NCBI RefSeq assembly: GCF_046119375.1
Contig: NW_027362769.1
Coordinates: 234,298,001-234,362,000 of the forward strand
Direction: 5' to 3'
Source: Phyllobates terribilis
Taxonomy: Eukaryota
Length of the DNA stretch: 64,000 nt
Within the stretch, counting starts at the first letter, position 1. The number at the start of each line of letters is the position of its first letter. The notes beneath the pieces are model-generated. The model did no database searches. It had not been told where the DNA came from and was given only the letters and a program-made list of their open reading frames with translations. Shown here one piece after another: positions 7,561-57,924 of the stretch. Made by a program: the position numbers and the translations under genes.

Positions 7561-7871
7561 TAGTGTTGAGCGAGCGTGCTCATTTAACCCTTTAAATGAG
7601 CATGCTTGGGTGCTCGTCTAGTAGTTTCGGCATGCTCGGAATCTCTGTTTGAACCGCTGCAGCTGCATGTGTCGCGGCTGTTAGACAGCTGTGACACATG
7701 CAGGGATTGCCTAACAAACAGGCAATCCCTGCATATGTCACAGCTGTCTCACAGCCGCAACACATGCAGCTGCGGTGGCTCAAACAGAGATGTCGAGCAT
7801 GCCAAAACTACTCAGTGAGCACCCGAACATTCTTGTTTAAAGGGTTAAACAAGCTTGTTCGCTCAACACTA
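7561..7871. mobile_element. Palindromic hAT-like MITE related to 36845-37152
   Basis: Ends TAGTGTTGAGCG...CGCTCAACACTA and a shared central gggattgcct...aggcaatccc hairpin. Confidence 0.8.
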
Positions 7872-30077: not shown

Positions 30078-31214
30078 TGACGCGCCCCCTGGGCCGTGGG
30101 GTACTCGGCAGCCAGGCCTCTGGCTGCTGGTGGATATCACGGTGCTGGCCCAGTCCGTGACCCAGGGCGGTCAGTCAAAAGGGGGAAATACATATAGGGG
30201 ATTTGGGAAAGTTCGTGACGCCTCCTGTGGATTCTGGTAGAGGTTACCAGCGCTGCGACAGTCCACTGAGGCTGATGTTAGGGGCAGCTATGATGGGTCG
30301 GCTCCCCACTGGTGGAGCAGGTCTCAGAGCAGTGTAGAGGTGTAGAAAGATGGTGGAAGCAGGAGAGAGACGGCAGGACGATCCCAGAGGAAATACAGGC
30401 ACACACACAAGGGCAAACTTCAATACCTTTACTGGTGGTGATGCAGGTACGGTCCAGGGCACTCAGGGCGAAGGGTACATTTCTGGACTCTCCCCAGTGA
30501 GCGGGTGTAAGGCCTCCTGATCAGTGTATTTTACTCTCTAAGCTTTGGGCCTGCCTGGAGCTAGGCCTGGCTTGCTTACTGCTTCCTTCTTGTACCTACT
30601 GTCCTGGCGGTAGTGTTTTCTCCTGGTTCCCACTATTCCTGGTCGCTCGAGCCTTAGTGGTACCTAACCCTGTTGCTGTGGTCAGCGGTTGGTTAACCTG
30701 GGACTTGTAGTTCTCCAGGGATTCCGGTTGTTCCTACTGGTCATAAAGATCCCTGTAGGCGCGGACCCGGTGTCCGGTATATGTTTCGGGGTGAGCCTGT
30801 TATGCTCCTCTGCCCCCTATGCGTTTCTCCTTCTTCACCTCAGTCTGCAGACTCTCTCATGCAGACTCCCTAAGCAGACTCTCTGAGTTCTGTCCCTGTC
30901 TGTTCCTGACAGGAACTCTCACTTGCCTTCTAGCCCGCTCCAGGCTCTCACTGGCCAGACTAGCCCACAGCTTGGGCCTAGCCTGGCCTTCAGCCACACA
31001 GACTTCAGCTTGTCTGGAGCTGCAGCATGGTGTCACACTGTCTGCTTCCCACTGACTGACTTCCTGGACTCCACCCCCCAGTATTTATATACCTGACAGG
31101 GCTCAATCTAGTGGACTTGGGTGGAGGTGTCTGCCTGTATTGAGGCCACTGGGGAGAATTCCATCCATGCACCCCTCTGGGATCTGTGGCACCAGTGCGC
31201 AGCAGGGCGCCACA
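30078..31214 (-). mobile_element. Solo LTR (1137 bp) of a related family
   Basis: On the minus strand it starts TGTGGCGCCCTG and ends GGCCCAGGGGGCGCGTCA, identical to the last 18 nt of the intact LTRs. U5 blocks are shared (tttgac...ccctggg.cacggac). GATA flanks both sides (30074-30077, 31215-31218). Confidence 0.9.
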
Positions 31215-36844: not shown

Positions 36845-37152
36845 TAGTGATGAGCGTAAGTGCTCGTTACTTGAGTTTGCATCGGGTGCTCGGGTATGCA
36901 CCGAGTATCACGGGTGTTCGAGTGACATGTTCGAGTCCTCGCGGCCTCAAGTTTCGTGTCTGTTAGTCAAGCACAAAACATACGGGGATTGCCTGTGTTT
37001 GCCAGGCAATCCCGCATGTTTTTTGGCTGCCTAATAGGCACGAAACATGAGGCTGCGAGGACTCAAACATGTCACTCGAACACTCGTGATACTCGGTGCA
37101 TACCCGAGCACCCGATGCAAAATCGAGTAACGAGTACTTGCACTCATCCCTG
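36845..37152. mobile_element. Palindromic hAT (Ac-like TIR) MITE
   Basis: Ends TAGTGATGAG...CTCATCCCTG, TSD tctgtgac/tctgtgat (7/8), whole element self-complementary. Confidence 0.85.
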
Positions 37153-37547
37153 TCTGTGATGTGTCTTTAGACAGCTTTGTATTAGTAAAAGACCATAAAA
37201 AATAGCAGTGAATATAAAGGTCCATATCTTTGCAACCGCATAGCAGATTTAAAAAAAAAATGGAATTCTCAAGGGAACAGCAAAAACTGTACACTTTTGA
37301 CCTAGTGTCAGGTCCTCTTTAAACAACCATGACTCCAGGTATAATCTGGAAATACTAATATCCATATGTCAAAGGAGAATTTTTATTTCTTAAAAACCTG
37401 AAAATTATGTGATATGTAACAAAAAAAGTGCTTACCGTCTATTTTGTGTTGTTCGCAAAGCAGCAATAGGTTCCATAGTGCTTTACAGAGATTATTTCCG
37501 TTCATTTTCCATAGTGGTTCTCCCCAGCTAATCCCTTTGAAATGATA

Positions 37548-38769
37548 TGTAGCACCCTGAGGATTCGGCTGCTACAGGGGTATTACACCTCAAGCCAGAG
37601 GTGTGGTATTCCACTCCCAGGTAAGGATGGAGTGTGGAACTGAGCTTAGTAGGCTGCATGCACTACATACATCCCATTTCCGGGGGACAGAACAACGGTA
37701 CTCCCACCAGTATATGTGCAGGTACGACAGCGTCTGTCCCTGGCTGGAGTGGGAGGGGGGTGGAACATCCCAGTAGTGTAGGGGCAGATAGGGGGTGTAG
37801 TCTGGGTAAAGCTAGGAGCCCATTGGGTGCTGGTCACCTGGGCTCACACATAGAGGGAGTATATAAGGTGGGCACCATCTTAGAATAGGGTCTTTGGTTC
37901 AGTTCAGGCAGGAGGAGAAGAGCAGAGGAGCTCAGCCAGGAGGGCTGACAGGGAGCTGTGGCTCCGGCTGGGCCCAGCTCCAGAACAGAGCCTGCTGAGA
38001 GAGAGAGAGAGAGGAGTAAGAAGGACCCAGAGAGGAAACAAGAAGAGAACCCCAAGATCCCAGAATAAGGACAGAAGGGTGAAGGGTTGGCGGACACGGG
38101 TACCGGAACCCAAGCTGGCAGAGGCAGAAGTAACCCTTAGCCAGGAACCAGAGGTCGTGGTCAAGATTTGCCACGACCCTCACCAAATCCACCAGAAAGG
38201 CACACCAAGCATAGGGTCAGGGAACCCAGAGGAGGTTTGACCACCAAGAGACCCGAGGGAGCCGGCCAAAGGTGGATCCCTGGTGGGAACGGCCAGGAGG
38301 AAGAGAGAGACAGGGAAGCTCAGGACCACGCTCCGGACTGCCTGGGGGTTGGCCGAGTCCAGGACCTGGTGGACGCAGCACGGCTCGGGTGGTCACTCAA
38401 GGCCAGAGTGACTAAAGCAACATCAGTGAGTAAAAACCCTGAAACTGCATCTCCTGACTCTGCCTCTCCTTCCTGCATCATCACAACCCCCATCATCCAC
38501 ACCTGCTGCCCTGAGGCCATACCCCTCCCGTTGGGGGTTATACCATCACTGCTGCACATATACCACCGGCCTCAGCGGACTGCTCTGCAGCGGCGGCTTC
38601 AAAGCCGCACTCAACGGGTGGCGTAGTCGACACTTAACAACATCTACAAAGACTGCCACACACTTAGTTTGACACCCTGGGCACGGACCGGGTCACCACC
38701 ACAAGGACTACTACCCCCATACAGATCCGGCTCCGGGTATCCCCTGAACATGGCCCAGGGGGCGCGTCA
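37548..38769 (+). repeat. 5' LTR (1222 bp)
   Basis: TG...CA ends, TATATAA at 37860-37866, AGTAAA at 38429-38434. By eye it differs from the 3' LTR by 5 transitions and a 4-bp (GA)n length difference. Confidence 0.95.
37860..37866 (+). promoter_or_regulatory. TATA box of the LTR promoter
   Basis: TATATAA ~310 nt into the LTR, present in both LTRs. The related solo LTR has TATATAAA on the minus strand near 31084-31091. Confidence 0.6.
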
Positions 38770-38774
38770 ACTTT

Positions 38775-38792
38775 TGGCGTAGTCGGCAGGAT
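38775..38792 (+). other. Primer-binding site complementary to the tRNA-Ser 3' end
   Basis: TGGCGTAGTCGGCAGGAT is the reverse complement of ATCCTGCCGACTACG-CCA, the 3' end of the vertebrate GTAGTCG-type tRNA-Ser (AGA/TGA). It lies 5 nt downstream of the LTR end. Confidence 0.9.
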
Positions 38793-39026
38793 AACGTGCC
38801 CGCAACCACCGGGTACTGCGTGCCTGAAGAAAAGTTCATATTTACCGTAAAAAGAAGTCTCCCGCCAATTCCGGAGGGTCCCCGCCATCGGACGCCATCT
38901 CGGATCGGTTCCCGCCGTTTGCCCGCCATCTGCAGTCTTTTCCCGCCATCCACAGAGTTTCCCGCCATTGGGAAGCGGTTCCCGCCATCTGAGAAGATTT
39001 CCCGCCTTGGCAGAGCAGACGCCATT

Positions 39027-40703
39027 ATGGGCGTGCCAGAGGGTGGCAAGAGGCCACCTCCCATCGTGGGCCAGGACCAAGAATGGCGCCAAAAACGGAG
39101 ACCGCCCCCACCAGTAGAGACTGTGATGCTTGAGATGTCCATCAGCGTGGGGGGTCTGCCCCTGGAACTGACAATCACCAAGTTGCCCCAGGACCGCCCT
39201 CAATGGGGGCGGAGAGAGAACAAAAGAGAGAAGATGGGAGCAGCTTGGAGGAGTCTGGAGGAGTCGTACCCGGAGATGGAGGGGGAGGCAGGCAGCACCG
39301 ACCCAGCGGTCAGGAGCCTGTTGCAAGCGACAACCCCACAAGGCCTGGTGGAGATCCTGGCGCAGCTCCCCAGAGATCGGGAGCATGCACGGACCACACT
39401 GGAGGGCTTGGCTCAGAGGATGGCCCGAGTGCAGCGAGACGTACTGGCCACATGGAGCAGAGATATGGCCCTGCAGGCAGGAACCCGCCAACGGAGCACG
39501 CCACCCGAGACGAGGAGTCAGACCGCCTCTGAGGATGGCGCAGGAGGAATCAAGGCCGGAGACGACGCCGAGGAAGGAGCTAAAGAAACGGAGGCAGGTA
39601 AAGGGGACGTCACTACCCCGAGCCGAGAAGCCGTGAGCCTGCCCCAGCTCCCCGTCGCAGAGCCCGAAATTTCCCCTGCCGTGCCCGTCGTTGCACCGTC
39701 ACCGCTCCCGACTAGGCCTCAAACAGAAGCCGCGGCCACGCCCCCTGTGACGTCACGCGCCTCAACCCTGAGCGCGGCCACGCGGGAGACGCCACCGGCC
39801 TGGTCGCAAGGCCGAGTACCCCCGGGCGCCGCAGTACCAACAGCGCCCTCTACCTCTGCCGAGCCACCGGCCTGGTCGCTGGGCCAAGTAACCCCGGGCG
39901 CCGCCGTTTTCACGGTGCCCTTTACATTCAGGGTGCCCCAAGCCTGGTCGCAAGGCCTGGTAAACCCGGGCGCCGCTACCACCACCGCGCCCTCAACTTC
40001 CACTGTGCCACACCTGGGTGAGGACTTGTTTGCCCAGCACACTTGCCCGGATGGGCAGCCCTTTGTGTGGCCACCGGAGTACCACCATCCCCGACTCCGG
40101 AAAGAAAGACCCCTGGATGAGCCCCTGATCCCGGCTCCGGCGCCCGCCAAGATCACCCCACTCTCGTTGGAGGAAGCGCAGTTTGCGTGGGACCCCACTG
40201 GAGGAGACCTCATAGGGTTCACTCAAGAGACCCGGGCGGCCGCAGCTCAGCGAGCAGAGTGCTGCCGGCAGCAGTTAGAGGTCTTTGACAGAGAAAGGAG
40301 AGAGAGGCGGGTCCGTGAGCAGCGGCTGCAAATAAAAAGTGCAGAGCAGAAAAGCCGGACCCGAAGGAACCCCCGTGCAGCCCACGGTCCCCGTGCCACC
40401 GGGACTGTAATAAAATTCCAAATGGAGCACGGGTGGGGTTTTATACGGGACCACAGAACCCCCGGCGACGTCTTTGTCACCCGCAGAGACGTAGAAAGCC
40501 ATCTGCCGGAGGGACACAGAGGTCGTGACCTTTACCTGGGAGATGAGGTCACCTTCACCCGGCACCAGTGTGCCAAAGGACCCTATGCCCTTCATGTACA
40601 TCGCCTGACTGAGGAGGAGATGCGGTGTGAGGAAGGTCAAGAGGACCCGGACGGGTCTGAAGCCTACCCTCAGGAAGGAGCAGGAGGGCATCGTCACCAT
40701 TAA
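39027..40703 (+). CDS. LTR-element protein, 558 aa: low-complexity Pro/Ala/Thr region, three 24-aa repeats, predicted coiled coil, C-terminal cold-shock domain
   Basis: The frame is open from 38796 (GTG in the ORF track, 635 aa). The first ATG at 39027 is in strong Kozak context (gccattATGG). The C-terminus GTVIKFQMEHGWGFIR...GDVFVTRRDV...LYLGDEVTF...KGPYALHV fits the CSD pattern, with RNP1-like HGWGFI and RNP2-like VFVT. Confidence 0.85.
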   Translation: MGVPEGGKRPPPIVGQDQEWRQKRRPPPPVETVMLEMSISVGGLPLELTITKLPQDRPQWGRRENKREKMGAAWRSLEESYPEMEGEAGSTDPAVRSLLQATTPQGLVEILAQLPRDREHARTTLEGLAQRMARVQRDVLATWSRDMALQAGTRQRSTPPETRSQTASEDGAGGIKAGDDAEEGAKETEAGKGDVTTPSREAVSLPQLPVAEPEISPAVPVVAPSPLPTRPQTEAAATPPVTSRASTLSAATRETPPAWSQGRVPPGAAVPTAPSTSAEPPAWSLGQVTPGAAVFTVPFTFRVPQAWSQGLVNPGAATTTAPSTSTVPHLGEDLFAQHTCPDGQPFVWPPEYHHPRLRKERPLDEPLIPAPAPAKITPLSLEEAQFAWDPTGGDLIGFTQETRAAAAQRAECCRQQLEVFDRERRERRVREQRLQIKSAEQKSRTRRNPRAAHGPRATGTVIKFQMEHGWGFIRDHRTPGDVFVTRRDVESHLPEGHRGRDLYLGDEVTFTRHQCAKGPYALHVHRLTEEEMRCEEGQEDPDGSEAYPQEGAGGHRHH

Positions 40704-41154: not shown

Positions 41155-41163
41155 AGGGGGGAA
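41155..41163 (+). other. Polypurine tract
   Basis: AGGGGGGAA directly abuts the TGT start of the 3' LTR. Confidence 0.85.
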
Positions 41164-42389
41164 TGTAGCACCCTGAGGATTCGGCTGCTACAGGGGTATT
41201 ACACCTCAAGCCAGAGGTGTGGTATTCCACTCCCGGGTAAGGATGGAGTGTGGAACTGAGCTTAGTAGGCTGCATGCACTACATACATCCCATTTCCGGG
41301 GGACAGAACAACGGTACTCCCACCAGTATATGTGCAGGTACGACAGCGTCTGTCCCTGGCTGGAGTGGGAGGGGGGTGGAACATCCCAGTAGTGTAGGGG
41401 CAGATAGGGGGTGTAGTCTGGGTAAAGCTAGGAGCCCATTGGGTGCTGGTCACCTGGGCTCACACATAGAGGGAGTATATAAGGTGGGCACCATCTTAGA
41501 ATAGGGTCTTTGGTTCAGTTCAGGCAGGAGGAGAAGAGCAGAGGAGCTCAGCCAGGAGGGCTGACAGGGAGCTGTGGCTCCGGCTGGGCCCAGCTCCAGA
41601 ACAGAGCCTGCTAAGAGAGAGAGAGAGAGAGAGGAGTAAGAAGGACCCAGAGAGGAAACAAGAAGAGAACCCCAAGATCCCAGAATAAGGACAGAAGGGT
41701 GAAGGGTTGGCGGACACGGGTACCGGAACCCAAGCTGGCAGAGGCAGAAGTAACCCTTAGCCAGGAACCGGAGGTCGTGGTCAAGATTTGCCACGACCCT
41801 CACCAAATCCACCAGAAAGGCACACCAAGCATAGGGTCAGGGAACCCAGAGGAGGTTTGACCACCAAGAGACCCAAGGGAGCCGGCCAAAGGTGGATCCC
41901 TGGTGGGAACGGCCAGGAGGAAGAGAGAGACAGGGAAGCTCAGGACCACGCTCCGGACTGCCTGGGGGTTGGCCGAGTCCAGGACCTGGTGGACGCAGCA
42001 CGGCTCGGGTGGTCACTCAAGGCCAGAGTGACTAAAGCAACATCAGTGAGTAAAAACCCTGAAACTGCATCTCCTGACTCTGCCTCTCCTTCCTGCATCA
42101 TCACAACCCCCATCATCCACACCTGCTGCCCTGAGGCCATACCCCTCCCGTTGGGGGTTATACCATCACTGCTGCACATATACCACCGGCCTCAGCGGAC
42201 TGCTCTGCAGCGGCGGCTTCAAAGCCGCACTCAACGGGTGGCGTAGTCGACACTTAACAACATCTACAAAGACTGCCACACACTTAGTTTGACACCCTGG
42301 GCACGGACCGGGTCACCGCCACAAGGACTACTACCCCCATACAGATCCGGCTCCGGGTATCCCCTGAACATGGCCCAGGGGGCGCGTCA
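41164..42389 (+). repeat. 3' LTR (1226 bp)
   Basis: Near-identical copy of the 5' LTR, preceded by the PPT and followed by the GATA TSD. TATATAA at 41476-41482. Confidence 0.95.
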
Positions 42390-43075
42390 GATACATACAG
42401 TAGAAGTAGTTTCATAAAAAAGACAATTCATCTCTGTATGATTTTGAGAAAAAAAACTTATGCGAAGGGAGAACATAAAATCTCCATTCAACCTTTGCCC
42501 CCAACTACTGCAAGGCAGAAGTGTTAACCACTGAGCTTTGGCTAGATACGACTAAGAGGGTCTGAGCAGAACAACTGAGATCACCATATTACATGTGCAC
42601 TGTGAGCATAATCATTAGGTAATTTTGTATTTTTGATGATTCATTTTATTATTGAACAACTACTGTGCTGTTGGTCAATCCAAAATGATAATGAAACCTG
42701 AACATATAAGAAATTAAAAGTGAGGTTTCGTCTTTTTTAGGATTTTAGGAGTGTGCAGAATTATTGGGCAACTATTATTGTGCAGAATTATTATGTAATT
42801 AAATTAAAAATGTAATTTTTTCCATTTCAATTGTATATTTTCATCTGTTAAAGTGAGCATAATAACCAAAAAACTCCATGTGCAAAAATACATTTCTGAC
42901 ATTCCAAAAAAATATCAGTGACCAATATAGCCGCCCTTGTTTTCACCAACAGTGATAAGCGCCATCCAGCGAGTCTGTCAGTTTTCCTAATCTGTTGATG
43001 ATCAACTTTTGTAGACAGCACCAACTACAACCTCCCAGACACTATTCAGAGAGGTGACTGTTTTCCTTCACAATG

Positions 43076-52778: not shown

Positions 52779-54460
52779 TTTCATTGATTCATGCACAAAC
52801 TTTAAAAAACAAATCCATGTGCCTGATCGATGAGACTCAGATCTCGTCCTATTCTCATCTGTTATGCAGCTCAACCCAGCCATTAAAGATTATGGGAATA
52901 AGTTTAACACAGAAGAAAAATGGATGATGTACTTTTTACTTCAGTGTTCCATGCTTGCTTCATCTGTTCTTCACTGATTTATTGTTAAGAATTAATGGAT
53001 GAACAAAAGTTCAGACGTTTCATCTCCATCAGTTTTTAAAAATGTATCAGAAAAAAACAGCCTGTGAGAGGAAAACAAGCTGATTGACATGTAGCTTTAT
53101 GGTGTATTACAATTTATTATGAATTAAATAACTTTTGTAGGGGACAAAATTTTGTTCCTGTAGAGACTTTTTCTATTTTTTGTAAATTCCTTATTTTAAC
53201 AAACACTGCTTCGCCACTACACAATAGAAAGTTACAGACAGCAATAATCTAAAATTGTAAAGAAATATAAGTGGTTAAATCTGTAACACATAAAACATGA
53301 AAGAAAGTGCATCTGACCAAGCAGGTATGGGGTCCAGCAATGCGTTTTAAACAATAAATAAAATTGCCCAATGGGATTGTAAAGGTTACACGGGCCGAGA
53401 TGTATAGATAATGGCCCCCAACAACAGTGAAGAGGGTCCCTGGGTGGGTGTGTATGATGATGTCCATTTTCTTCATCTTACTTCTGTAACTTAGTAACTT
53501 CTTAGGCAAGAAGTCAGGGTTTCCAACCGTCCAGAAATTCCAGGACATTCCGTAAAAATAGTGCACATTTTCGCCCTGTCCGTAAAAATTATTTAAGACG
53601 TCTTTGATTTTTTTAAACCTAAAGAAACTTATACTGACTATTTTGACTATAATTATCATAATTTTACAGGCTTACAGTGAATGCAGCTGATGTCTTCATA
53701 TCAGGATTATGGGCTGAAGACACAATCATCACTAATAATTATAATTTTTTTATGGTTTTCTAATGTGTCCGTAAAAAAATATTGTCTGTCCGTGATTTTT
53801 TGATAAAATGTCCAGAAAAAATAAAAAGCCAAGTTGGCATCTCTGGAAGGAGTCACTCCAGGATACAAAAATAAACTGATGTTTACTGGAGGCCTACATC
53901 TTATGAGTAACGTTACAGTAACACAGCATGTCTCAACGGAGCCGTCCAACTCCAGTTAGCTTCTTTCTCAACTCACTCCCTTGCAGTACTCGTGCCTCAG
54001 CCTGGCAAGGCTTAGTCCTTTTATTCCATTGTGACGTCCCATGGTCCCCAATAACCCATGGCTACCTCCTTTGGATCTCCTTCTCTGTAAAACATAAGCT
54101 GAACTCTCCAGTCTACTACTCCTTCACACACTAGGCACCCCAGCTTGCCTTCTGTCTACAGATCCTTCTCTTCTTAAAGTCAGCTGCTGGCTTGCTACCT
54201 GTGTATCTGGATCCCCATCTTAGCACACACACTGCAATGTCTCTCTCTTTGGAGACAACTCTCCCCTCCTTCTCTTTGTCACTGCACACTAACTTCTGGA
54301 ACTTCTAGCAACTTTCCCTTTTTCTTCCTAAAAGCTTATCCCAACTACAGAGCCTGGCTAACTGATAAATGCCTCTGTGTCGTGCATGTTCACAGTTACT
54401 TTAACTCCACCAACACAAGTTTATTAAGCTACATAACAATACTGTGAACACTTGTATTAA

Positions 54461-54947
54461 AGAGAATCTGTCACCCCCTGGCACTTATCTGTCCTCTAAT
54501 ATGGGCATACAGGTGATAAAAATGTAAATCTATACTAACCTGTATGCCTCATGTTAGATGTCTGGTTGCTGTAAAATGTCTTTTTATTCAGTCAAGTTTC
54601 TGATGCTGTGGAGCCGGGGCCTGGAAGAAATCCCTGCCTCCTGTGTGAATTACCTTGTTTCTCCCCTCCCCTGCATGTCACAGTGCCCTGTGATGTGCAG
54701 TTGCAGAAGCCAAATCCAGGCACTGTGACATGCAGGGGAGGTGGGAAACATTGTAATTTCCACAGGAGGCGGGGATTTCTTCCAGTCCCCGGGACTGGAA
54801 CACATCAGAAACTTGACTCAATAAAAAGACATTTCACAGCAACAAGACCTCAAATATGAGGCATACAGGTAGGTATCGATTCACATTTCTATCACCTGTA
54901 TGCCCATATTAGAGGTCAAATAAGTGCCAGGGGGTGACAGATTCCCT
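54461..54947. mobile_element. T2-type palindromic MITE
   Basis: TTAA|AGAGAATCTGTCACCCCC ... GGGGGTGACAGATTCCCT|TTAA. Confidence 0.85.
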
Positions 54948-57924
54948 TTAAACATCACATATAGAAAACGGAGCAATACAAGCTATACAGCACATTACAG
55001 TAGTCACAATATATTCAGGAGGATGCCGGTCACTTTACGTCTCCTTTGCAGGCTGAGAGGGTGAAGTGTGACAGTATGCATTTCGGGAGAGATCTGTCCA
55101 TCAACTAGGTCGATTCGAGGAGTGTTGGAGATCTTTCATGCTGTCCATGGTTTGGACAGCATTCATTGACTAACCAGGTATGAGAACTATGCTAGACTTG
55201 ATTTGTATTCTATAGGGTCTAGGAAGGCCAACTAGTGATGCCAGGTCTTGCTAAAGGAGGAGGTTGTGTTATGTGATGGCGCAATCAGGTCCTCCATCTT
55301 TATAATCTCATTGACCTTGGAAAACAAGAGATCTAACAAGGGTGGATCTGGGTACCCCACATGAGATTACTGCAAGCACGATCTGCATTAATCAAAGGCC
55401 TAAGGTGAGAGCGCTTGTATCATTGGATGGAGATATAACTGATTCAAAAATTAAAGAGACTTCTGACCAGCTAATGAAAAGTGGATTCTGTGATTTTTTT
55501 AGGCTTGCAGAGATTAGGGCTCTTTTTAAAGCACAAGCTTTAAGACAGACTTTCCCAAACTCAGATGGTGACATGTAATCCTATGCTTGATGCTAGACAA
55601 AATATAACCATGTGTGTGAGCCCCAACTTTTCTTATAAGTTGCAATCTATATGACGGCATTGCTGTATTTCCATTATGTGTCCTCTTTTATAGTAGTAAG
55701 AAAAATGATATCCACAGTCAGCTAAATCAGGTTCCTGGATTACACATATGTGAGAGACATGTTGCTAGCACACAAAATACAACCCGCTTTATCGATGTAA
55801 AATAGGTATGTGATTAAACCACTAGAGGGAAGTAGTAAGTTAATATAAAAAAGAAAGCAAGTGAAGGTGTCTGGTACTGCAGATGAAATACATTATAATG
55901 CTTTATTGTTCTGTCTATGCTACAGAGAACTAAGAAGCTTTAGAACAAAATTTTATGAGTAGATTGGGAAACAGTGTGGGCAGTAGAATCATCGGAAATT
56001 ACTAATACAGCGTACATTCTTTACAAATGTACATTTTATTTACATATTTATTGTATTTATTTATTAATCTACTATTGTAAATTACAAAAACATATATTAA
56101 GAGCGAAACAGAAGCAAAAAATGCCCAATACATTCCAACACTGCCACTGTCCAGTATACTGAATAGTCGGAAGGTCTCGTAAATATGAAAATCCAACAGT
56201 GTTATTAACTGTCTTCTATTGGCCATAAACATTAGATGTAGAGTACATTAAGAATATATCATCTGAACTGGATGATCAGCTGGACCGGTCATTTTTTCTC
56301 TATAATACATCATTCAAACTAATCATGTGTATATATAGTTGGGTTGTGAGATCTAACTGTTACAAATGAGTACTCGGCTATTAAAAGGGGACCTGTCAGC
56401 AGGTTTTTGCTGAGTGAATTGAGGACAGCATGAGGTAGGGGCTGAGACACAGAATTCAGCGATGTGTCGCTTATTAGACTGTGTGCTGTTGTTTCCATAC
56501 AATGAAAGTTTCATCACCAGGAGATTATTTCTGCCCAGACTAGCTCCCATATTCCATGTGCATGACTAGCCTTATGTTTTGTACATGTTCTAGACAACTG
56601 CTTAAAGAGGACCTTTCACTTTCCATAAATAGATAATTATTTTAACTAGTCTGAAAGCTAATATTCTCGAATCTGGACTTATTATTTTTCTTTAATTTTT
56701 GTTCCTATGCCCCTCAGTTCTTCTTCCTTTTTGCAATCTTTATGTAAATTCAATCTTGTTAGCCAAGGACATTAAATCTTCAACTTTTTTCTATGGGTAT
56801 CCACTTGAGGATCATGCCATCTTGGCTAAAAAAGATTTAGAGACAGGGGTCCAAAAAAGAAAGAACGGGGTATATGTCTGGAACGGAGAGGTACAGGAAC
56901 TAAAATAAACTAAATAAAACAATAAGCAGCAGCATTTAGAGTAGATAAAAAGTTACATAATTACAGGAAGTGACAGGTCCTCCTTAATAAATATTAATTT
57001 ATTACGGAATAGGAAGTGTAAATAAATACTGACCCAAGTTTCATTTTATAAAGATCTTGAAAATGTTGTGCAATCTATTTTCTGCATGTTATAGACTAGG
57101 AGGAGCTGAACATATTGATATATAGGTTTGCAGGAAAATATTCAGTATAACTTCCATTGAAATCCTTGCTGTTCCCGGGCATAAAACCAGTGGGTGGTTC
57201 TAAAGGGAACATACACTTATAAAGGGAAGACTGTCAATCACTTTGGAGGACCGACCTCTGGACTTTAATGCATAAAATAAGTTATACTGAATCTTTTCCC
57301 ATAAATCTTTATATTAATCAACTTAGCTTTTCCTGCTCTATAACATGCCGCCAAAAGATTGCATAGCATTTCCAAAATTGACAGGGTCTCTTTAAATCAG
57401 TATTACCTGCAAGTTTGGGTTAAGCACAATCTCTCACTTGGCCCTTGTCATACATTGGTGTTGGATGATGAGATCGAGGATGATTTATGCAAGGTCTTTG
57501 TGCAGATTGATTGCTCTAGCTCTACCATCCTCTGCTTGTAGGATAAAAGGAAAACAGTTGCAAAGCTTTTCTCTTTGCCATTTATGTCCCAGGCAAACAC
57601 AAGGTCACATTATGCAGCCGTATAATACAAAGATCATGTATGCAGAGAAATAGAACTTTGCTGAGAGCTGTATAAATTCCTATTCAGTGAGCTTTGACTA
57701 ATGCTAATAAAGAACTTTAGAACATACTAATATTTTTTTGTGTTTCACTTCCTCACTATTTTCAAGATCATTTCTCATTGCCTTTATTGTCAAAACACTC
57801 CTGTGGCTTATATGCATTTTATAAGCATCTTACATCCATCTTTTGTGTCCTTTTTAAAATATCCTAAACCGTAACCTCAGAGTCAGTTTATATTGTATTA
57901 ATTGCTTCTTTAAAAAAATAAAGC

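What the first reader, a model, noticed from the sequence alone, without database searches (positions are those of the whole stretch)
38619..38629. Partial PBS copy inside U5 that appears to track a different tRNA-Ser in each LTR family
Seen: TGGCGTAGTCG, the first 11 nt of this element's own PBS, recurs ~140 nt before the end of both LTRs (38619-38629, 42239-42249). At the matching position the diverged solo LTR reads AGGCGTCACGAAC (plus-strand GTTCGTGACGCCT, 30211-30223). From memory, a vertebrate tRNA-Ser(CGA) ends ...CCTGTTCGTGACG-CCA, a 12-nt match. Inference: the U5 motif co-varies with primer choice, which suggests a function such as a second tRNA or 3'-tRF docking site, a decoy for tRF-mediated silencing, or an aid to priming or strand transfer.
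Basis: partly seen in the sequence, partly recalled or inferred. Interest (0 to 1): 0.72.

Follow-up and report, generated by a model that had tools for sequence, protein, structure and literature searches.

The report
Retrotransposon LTR sites track primer tRNA
In a very abundant family of jumping genes in this genome, two short sites inside the terminal repeat match the two strands of the host tRNA that starts the element's copying and changed in step each time a lineage switched tRNA, so they likely help capture and open that tRNA.

Summary
Confirmed and extended. The 11-nt PBS copy (M) lies in both LTRs of a young non-autonomous Gypsy element. The solo LTR's closest sampled full-length relative has the predicted Ser(CGA) PBS, and both tRNA-Ser genes exist in the host. 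Genome-wide exact patterns give 41,212 plus 3,838 concordant M/PBS pairs against 3 discordant ones, all chimeras or a deletion artefact. LTR and ORF trees reject a single primer switch (AU p 0.012 and 0.0002); the RT tree is inconclusive (p 0.09). New here: a second co-varying U5 site, about 75 nt before the PBS, is complementary to the cognate tRNA's 5' end. M covers CCA plus the 3' acceptor strand and directly follows a pseudoknot supported by compensatory changes. Only 3 copies show M extended to a full PBS, so M is not a routine priming site. Best model, inferred: U5 grips both acceptor strands to open and load the primer. A tRF decoy is unlikely, because M lacks the seed match. Extra tRNA contacts are known from HIV, Ty1, Ty3 and Drosophila gypsy; I did not find this layout in ten literature searches. 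No binding or activity was measured, and only one host genome was available.

The parts
37548..38769 (+). 5' LTR (TG...CA, 1222 bp) of a young non-autonomous Gypsy element; GATA target-site duplication
   Evidence: 4 substitutions and one 4-nt indel against the 3' LTR
37860..37866 (+). TATA-like box (inferred promoter)
   Evidence: sequence; position
38429..38434 (+). Conserved AGTAAA, a likely poly(A) signal that would place M in U5; its GTGAGTAAA context also resembles a splice donor
   Evidence: A[AGT]TAAA 150-260 nt upstream of M in 62 of 66 representatives
38522..38537 (+). Hairpin whose loop (38527-38533) is predicted to pair with 38612-38618, forming a pseudoknot
   Evidence: compensatory changes
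38612..38618 (+). 3' strand of the pseudoknot helix, directly abutting M
   Evidence: helix 3: 96.6% of cells paired, 2 of 7 pairs with two-sided changes
38619..38629 (+). M: 11-nt PBS copy, complementary to CCA, the discriminator base and the 3' acceptor strand of tRNA-Ser(AGA/TGA)
38651..38659 (+). Proximal word predicted to form a hairpin with M; seen mainly in the main AGA lineage
   Evidence: window fold; alignment
38670..38769 (+). Terminal U5 stem domain that would bring M and the PBS to the same stem base
   Evidence: folds; a T/A swap between the two arms in part of the set (37 T-A and 6 A-T against 5 non-matching, 18 of 66 not called)
38698..38711 (+). A5: site complementary, with a bulge in this lineage, to the 5' end (nt 1-11) of the cognate tRNA
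38775..38792 (+). 18-nt primer-binding site for tRNA-Ser(AGA/TGA)
38796..40703 (+). Single internal ORF with a C-terminal cold-shock domain; no gag or pol match
   Evidence: purifying selection
41155..41163 (+). Polypurine tract
   Evidence: sequence
41164..42389 (+). 3' LTR
42239..42249 (+). M copy in the 3' LTR
42318..42331 (+). A5 copy in the 3' LTR
30078..31213 (-). Solo LTR of a Ser(CGA)-primed sister family; TATC target duplication
30211..30223 (-). M of the solo LTR (CGA type, first base differs)
30135..30147 (-). A5 of the solo LTR (CGA type)
   Evidence: compare

Best explanation
The motif is a primer-matched site in the LTR of a Gypsy superfamily that, with a second site complementary to the same tRNA's 5' end, likely grips both strands of the tRNA-Ser acceptor stem to open the primer and help load it onto the real PBS. 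Shown: M is complementary to the 3'-terminal 11 nt of the cognate tRNA, A5 is complementary to nt 1-11, and both changed together with the PBS in at least two independent lineages. Predicted: M is exposed, followed by a G-poor linker and preceded by a pseudoknot helix that would hinder extension from it. Inferred: the tRNA docks at M and A5, then passes to the 18-nt PBS through the extra T-arm pairing, and DNA synthesis starts there. Inferred from one copy: rare templated overwriting of M by the primer or PBS sequence may help M catch up after a primer switch.
For: Genome-wide exact patterns: 41,212 AGA/AGA, 3,838 CGA/CGA, 3 CGA-motif/AGA-PBS and 0 AGA-motif/CGA-PBS. Of those 3, one is a 2-nt deletion and two are chimeras whose 3' LTR is AGA-type. 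In loci chosen without reference to M, 56 of 56 are nearer their own PBS type; the A5 word matches in 21 of 27 AGA and 26 of 29 CGA loci, and none carries the other type's word. One AGA origin is rejected on the LTR sequence upstream of M (55 of 66 rows, AU p 0.012) and on the cold-shock ORF (26 rows, p 0.0002). In AGA copies, identity of M to the PBS is 0.91-1.0 over positions 1-11 and 0.45 or less after, which is the acceptor-stem boundary. A5 pairs better with the cognate tRNA 5' end in 59 of 76 and 41 of 51 loci, and in 21 of 28 and 26 of 28 when limited to the loop; all 7 AGA exceptions carry both the old and the new word. A5 pairs up to 11-12 contiguous nt in tRNA order, which M cannot offer. 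Predicted duplexes: M with the cognate tRNA about -22 kcal/mol, the acceptor stem -8.5, the PBS -34 to -36. The upstream structure has 97.5% of cells paired and 13 of 26 pairs with two-sided changes. The linker has 88 G in 1,650 nt and is predicted unpaired. In L220, M in the 5' LTR is a full 18-nt PBS while the same element's 3' LTR has 12 nt.
Against: No binding, structure probing or activity was measured. Only two independent switches, between two related tRNAs, in one genome. The RT tree needs two changes but does not reject one (p 0.09). Single-sequence folds give no consistent partner or accessibility for M, and in the main AGA lineage M is often predicted in a hairpin. A cruder A5 anchor gave 19 to 7 for AGA but 14 to 15 for CGA. 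A5 is bulged in the largest lineage and weak in some CGA clades. A distant autonomous CGA family has a degenerate M in both copies seen, and other Ser-primed families have no M, so M is not universally required. The pair counts come from related sequences and a structure derived from the same alignment. The R/U5 boundary is inferred. L220 could also be a conversion from the nearby PBS.
Confidence: 0.5

Rival explanations
1. M stably holds a second, non-priming tRNA, and A5 binds the 5' strand of that tRNA or of the primer. The extra tRNA would bridge two genomic RNAs or enrich the primer in the particle.
For: The same covariation; a stable predicted M-tRNA duplex; tRNA-mediated bridging or dimerisation is described for Ty3 and Drosophila gypsy (passages of PMC5371799 and PMC1635307).
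Against: In those systems the extra site binds other tRNA parts and lies at the 3' end of the RNA. No stoichiometry data here.
Confidence: 0.2
2. M is an intramolecular RNA switch strand that masks A5 or the PBS region until the tRNA binds, so it follows the primer only indirectly.
For: M can pair 5-6 nt with A5 (about -10 to -12 kcal/mol) and with the proximal word in the main AGA lineage. The HIV-1 PAS is masked by a helix in a comparable way (passages of PMC3185550).
Against: A mask of A5 would read in tRNA 5'-end order, not as CCA-complement first. The CCA-complement part is nearly invariant. No conserved intramolecular partner with two-sided changes was found for M's type-specific bases beyond lineage-linked columns.
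Confidence: 0.12
3. The function is at the DNA level: the minus-strand strong-stop copy of M mimics the tRNA 3' end and pairs with the primer's freed 5' strand or with a second RNA's PBS to aid strand transfer.
For: Follows directly from the complementarity.
Against: Pairing with the primer's 5' strand needs only 7 nt and does not explain the conserved CCA complement, the adjoining RNA pseudoknot or A5.
Confidence: 0.08
4. M is a neutral relic of an old LTR-PBS junction that is kept in step by occasional templated overwriting and by hitch-hiking with each lineage.
For: M is preceded by CA plus 4-5 nt, like the real junction; L220 shows that overwriting occurs; there are only two switches.
Against: M columns are 0.98 and 0.90 conserved against 0.52 and 0.57 for the adjacent linker in loci chosen without reference to M. 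Overwriting is rare (1 of the 3 hits, against about 45,000 normal copies). A5 changed too, stepwise, with intermediates.
Confidence: 0.06
5. M is a decoy for 3' tRNA fragments that silence the element through its PBS.
For: 3'-tRFs target PBSs of mammalian LTR elements (passages of PMC7472051), and M is complementary to their 3' part.
Against: The seed of an 18-nt or 22-nt 3'-tRF pairs with PBS positions 12-17 or 16-21, which M lacks. M binds far more weakly than the PBS. It does not explain A5.
Confidence: 0.04

Closest known systems
Drosophila gypsy two tRNA-Lys2 binding sites (PMC1635307, passages seen)
   Same: A Gypsy element with a second 11-nt site for its own primer tRNA that does not prime.
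   Different: There the second site is near the RNA 3' end, binds the anticodon and T stems, and was dispensable for cDNA synthesis. Here M repeats the complement of the 3' acceptor end in U5, and a third site matches the 5' end.
Ty3 and Ty1 bipartite PBS (PMC5371799, passages seen)
   Same: Multi-site tRNA-template pairing sets up initiation.
   Different: Those segments cover different tRNA arms around a short PBS. Here a full 18-nt PBS is present and its first 11 nt are duplicated.
HIV-1 PAS and A-rich loop, HIV-2 and RSV U5-tRNA contacts (PMC3185550, PMC11181671, PMC11251516, passages seen)
   Same: U5 sites outside the PBS must be co-adapted for a stable primer switch.
   Different: They pair with the T stem, anticodon loop or variable arm, and the co-adaptation was engineered. 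Here it is natural, repeated, and involves both acceptor strands.
FIV extended tRNA-Lys3 interaction (Miller et al. 2001; title seen in a reference list; content recalled)
   Same: As recalled, a U5 loop pairs with the tRNA 5' end, like A5.
   Different: No upstream PBS copy is recalled. The paper could not be read.
PNMA-Gag Ty3/Gypsy elements such as Gypsy12_DR (PMC3789554, PMC4131045, passages seen)
   Same: Autonomous partners have a PNMA-type Gag with a zinc knuckle and PR-RT-RH-IN order.
   Different: Clade not fixed by a tree with named references. The passages seen mention no U5 tRNA sites.
Helenus and Cassandra TRIMs (PMC10886601, passages seen)
   Same: Non-autonomous LTR elements with tRNA-related sequence in the LTR.
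   Different: Those carry a sense tRNA-derived, promoter-like sequence with no complementarity to their PBS. Here the sites are short, antisense and matched to the primer.

Membership tests
Ty3/Gypsy LTR retrotransposon | TG...CA LTRs, short TSD, PBS and PPT | tested here: met
Ty3/Gypsy LTR retrotransposon | pol in the order PR-RT-RH-IN in autonomous relatives | tested here: met
   on L177; the window copy itself has no pol
Gmr1-type Gypsy | integrase upstream of RT | tested here: not met
   one search gives RT-RH before IN; definition from PMC4131045
Gypsy12_DR/PNMA-related lineage | PNMA-type Gag | tested here: met
   Pfam PF14893 at or just above cut-off in L177 and L172
Gypsy12_DR/PNMA-related lineage | RT groups with named reference elements | not testable with these tools
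   no Repbase or GyDB references held
Ty3-type bipartite PBS | PBS split into segments that bind different tRNA arms, one near the RNA 3' end | tested here: not met
   the PBS is a full 18 nt; M repeats the same tRNA segment
Retroviral primer activation signal | U5 site pairing with the 5' strand of the T stem | tested here: inconclusive
   a weak signal about 255 nt upstream coincides with the pseudoknot strand and is not kept in the main AGA lineage
Extended tRNA-template interaction (functional class) | site outside the PBS complementary to the cognate tRNA and co-adapted on primer switch | tested here: met
Extended tRNA-template interaction (functional class) | measured tRNA binding and effect on initiation | not testable with these tools
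   needs bench work
Argonaute-type 3'-tRF target or decoy | seed pairing (nt 2-7 of the fragment) | tested here: not met
Alternative priming site | frequent insertions with M extended to 18 nt or LTRs ending at M | tested here: not met
   3 hits genome-wide; 3' LTRs are full length in L220 and L221 and were not found for L222
Helenus-type TRIM | sense tRNA-derived sequence in the LTR | tested here: not met
   no tRNA gene in the window; no convincing Rfam match

The most novel reading that the evidence does not exclude
U5 of this vertebrate Gypsy superfamily is a dedicated tRNA loading dock: a pseudoknot-capped, non-priming copy of the PBS and a loop site clamp the two acceptor strands, then hand the opened tRNA to the PBS. 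The dock acts as a primer-specificity check and can be rewritten from the primer itself, so it re-tunes when a lineage changes tRNA.
Probability: 0.3. Interest if true: 0.82.

Novelty: new variant of a known kind. Interest (0 to 1): 0.66.

Why it matters
How retroelements choose and keep one primer tRNA has been studied mostly by engineering HIV and yeast Ty elements, where the roles of contacts outside the PBS are debated. This family gives a natural, repeated experiment: about 45,000 copies, two primers, at least two switches, visible intermediates, and two U5 sites that follow the primer. It names exact swap experiments on a short RNA, and suggests a primer-loading step that separates docking from priming.

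Tried and rejected
A third primer type with its own M: none found. 28 of 30 loci with other Ser PBSs were unrelated families without M, and 2 were single swaps that kept the CGA motif. A general non-Ser pattern gave 434 hits against 301 for the control, with no matching family in the listed rows. A pattern for the distant L036 family gave 0 hits. Other genomes: the 3 metagenome hits were unrelated chance matches, and viral contigs held no gag relative. Expression: no RNA holder listed, and the contigs laid cannot show transcript ends, so the R/U5 boundary stays inferred. My first idea, that the second word is a permuted anti-PBS for an RNA switch, was demoted when it proved to be the in-order complement of the tRNA 5' end. 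The RNAalifold long-range M-PBS and M-downstream pairs rest on invariant or one-sided columns and were not accepted. The A5 accessibility figure (0.29 unpaired) used a marker that often caught the neighbouring stem and is not used. Rfam gave two sub-threshold matches. The scan's earlier findings were empty. Literature searches showed no description of this layout; Repbase entries and most subscription papers could not be searched, and no supplements were read.

Full report
OBSERVATION. The 11-mer is at 38619, 38775 (PBS) and 42239 and nowhere else in the window, against 0.14 expected with one mismatch. The element has LTRs at 37548-38769 and 41164-42389, a GATA duplication and only 4 substitutions plus one indel between its LTRs. 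Its 2.4-kb interior holds one long ORF with a cold-shock domain and no gag or pol match, so it is non-autonomous. The solo LTR at 31213-30078 ends like the element's LTR and carries the CGA-type motif at the same place.

THE FAMILY AND ITS PRIMERS. An LTR-end-plus-PBS pattern has 48,695 matches in the own genome against 114 for the reversed control; 2,100 of that pattern type have the Ser(CGA) PBS. Autonomous relatives have a PNMA-type Gag and PR-RT-RH-IN. The six gag homologues found include five named by their sources from poison frogs. ARAGORN on 12 of 30 loci found Ser(CGA), Ser(AGA) and Ser(TGA) genes; the last two share their 5' and 3' ends, so 'AGA type' means either. Seven of the first eight loci were LTR junctions where the PBS runs on for about 31-54 nt of tRNA complement. 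These read-through copies show directly which tRNAs primed.

COVARIATION. Exact genome-wide patterns (motif, 130-160 nt, PBS) gave 41,212 AGA/AGA, 3,838 CGA/CGA, 3 CGA/AGA and 0 AGA/CGA; these are lower bounds. Of the three, L092 is an AGA copy with a 2-nt deletion, and L091 and L093 have a CGA-type 5' LTR but an AGA-type 3' LTR, so they are chimeras. In 56 loci chosen on LTR end and PBS only (60 fetched, 4 duplicates dropped), all 56 were nearer their own type: 27 of 27 AGA within one mismatch and 26 of 29 CGA within two, one having lost the motif. Motif columns were 0.98 and 0.90 conserved against 0.52 and 0.57 in the linker behind them.

INDEPENDENCE. Copy counts are not events. A tree of the 200 nt upstream of M, without M, A5 or PBS (55 of 66 representatives; 11 lacked the anchor), needs two changes and rejects one AGA clade (AU p 0.012). 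The cold-shock ORF tree (26 of 38 hits long enough, including the two chimeras) agrees (p 0.0002). The RT tree (28 of 34 hits kept) needs two changes but does not reject one (p 0.09); the second AGA lineage is missing from it because the copies fetched were non-autonomous. So there are at least two switches, each with matched M. No third primer type with its own M was found.

A SECOND SITE. About 75 nt before the PBS lies a word that also changes with the primer. It is the reverse complement of the cognate tRNA's first 11-12 nt. A scan along each tRNA showed its 3' end (at M) and, most clearly for CGA, its 5' end (at this site, A5) as the strongest U5 matches; AGA also had a weaker signal about 255 nt upstream. 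The cognate 5' end pairs better in 59 of 76 AGA and 41 of 51 CGA loci, and in 21 of 28 and 26 of 28 on the extracted loop (56 of 66 representatives). The seven AGA exceptions are basal copies in which the new word was added onto the old CGA word. A cruder anchor gave 19 to 7 and 14 to 15, which I ascribe to mis-anchoring but report as a weaker result. In the unbiased set no locus had the other type's word. Pairing is contiguous over 11-12 nt in the second AGA lineage and many CGA clades, bulged in the main AGA lineage, and only 8-9 nt in some CGA clades.

STRUCTURE. On 38 sequences, four helices upstream of M have 97.5% of cells paired and 13 of 26 pairs with two-sided changes, beating all 500 shuffles and the slid controls; relatedness and the alignment-derived structure inflate this. 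One helix joins a hairpin loop to the 7 nt right before M, a pseudoknot with 2 two-sided pairs. The 25 nt after M have 88 G in 1,650 nt and are predicted unpaired. In AGA copies, identity to the PBS falls from at least 0.91 to 0.45 after position 11, the acceptor-stem boundary; in CGA copies it fades over positions 12-14 (this set includes loci selected on M). Single-sequence folds gave no consistent partner for M. A conserved AGTAAA 150-260 nt upstream in 62 of 66 suggests that M is in U5, but it sits in a splice-donor-like context and no RNA ends could be read.

DOES M PRIME? Only 3 places have M extended to a full PBS. L221 and L222 read directly from M into the interior; L221 has a full 3' LTR, and no matching 3' LTR was found for L222. 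These fit a deletion between direct repeats or a rare transfer product. In L220, the 5' LTR's M is a full 18-nt PBS while the same element's 3' LTR has 12 nt, differing at a small cluster of bases. That is a templated overwrite, from the tRNA or from the PBS, seen once.

MECHANISM. Shown: complementarity, covariation, repeated switches, conservation. Predicted: an exposed M capped by a pseudoknot, and duplexes of about -22 (M), -15 to -19 (A5), -8.5 (acceptor stem) and -34 to -36 kcal/mol (PBS). Inferred: M and A5 unzip the acceptor stem, and the longer PBS then takes over the 3' strand (0.5). Rivals: a second resident tRNA (0.2), an intramolecular switch (0.12), a DNA-level transfer aid (0.08), a neutral relic (0.06), a tRF decoy (0.04; seed positions absent). 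M is degenerate in one distant autonomous family and absent from unrelated Ser-primed families, so it is a lineage feature.

COMPARISON. I read passages only (no whole texts, no supplements) of PMC1635307, PMC3185550, PMC5371799, PMC11181671, PMC4131045, PMC7472051, PMC11251516, PMC10886601 and PMC3789554. They establish extra tRNA-template contacts in HIV, Ty1, Ty3 and Drosophila gypsy, and the need to co-adapt U5 for a stable primer switch in HIV-1, but at other tRNA parts. The FIV 5'-end contact is recalled; only its title was seen. Ten searches showed no upstream PBS copy paired with a 5'-end site; the library lacks Repbase and most subscription journals.

VERDICT. A real, conserved, primer-tracking feature and a new variant of extended tRNA-template interaction, with function inferred. 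Interest 0.66.

Noticed in passing
window 38796-40703 (+): The non-autonomous elements carry a long ORF ending in a cold-shock domain, under purifying selection (median dN/dS 0.25 over 56 unsaturated pairs among 18 open copies), in both primer types. One database homologue, unnamed in function. A cold-shock RNA chaperone could plausibly assist tRNA annealing; untested.
   Followed up: partly
L031, L032, L034-L038: Insertions whose PBS continues for about 31-54 nt of tRNA complement, in one case through the anticodon: read-through copies of the primer.
   Followed up: partly
L220 (G000 C2, near 938330856): The U5 motif in the 5' LTR has become a full 18-nt PBS while the 3' LTR keeps the 12-nt form.
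   Followed up: yes
window 37544-37547 and 42390-42393; solo LTR flanks near 31214 and 30077: The two insertions have target duplications GATA and TATC, reverse complements of each other, hinting at a target preference.
   Followed up: no
G000 C1 about 438.86-440.02 Mb: A long tandem cluster of same-strand copies of the second AGA lineage.
   Followed up: no
G000 C11 about 604.8 Mb and C3 about 7-9 Mb: Arrays of tRNA-Ser-like genes; the C3 loci checked hold Ser(AGA) or Ser(TGA), two of them beside tRNA-Gly.
   Followed up: no
L130, L144: Single copies of CGA families whose PBS matches another tRNA-Ser, wholly or in part, while M stays CGA type.
   Followed up: partly
window 39791-40011: Three 72-nt in-frame repeats inside the cold-shock ORF.
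   Followed up: no
window, e.g. 7561-7871, 36846-37151, 54457-54951: Many long inverted repeats typical of small palindromic DNA transposons.
   Followed up: no
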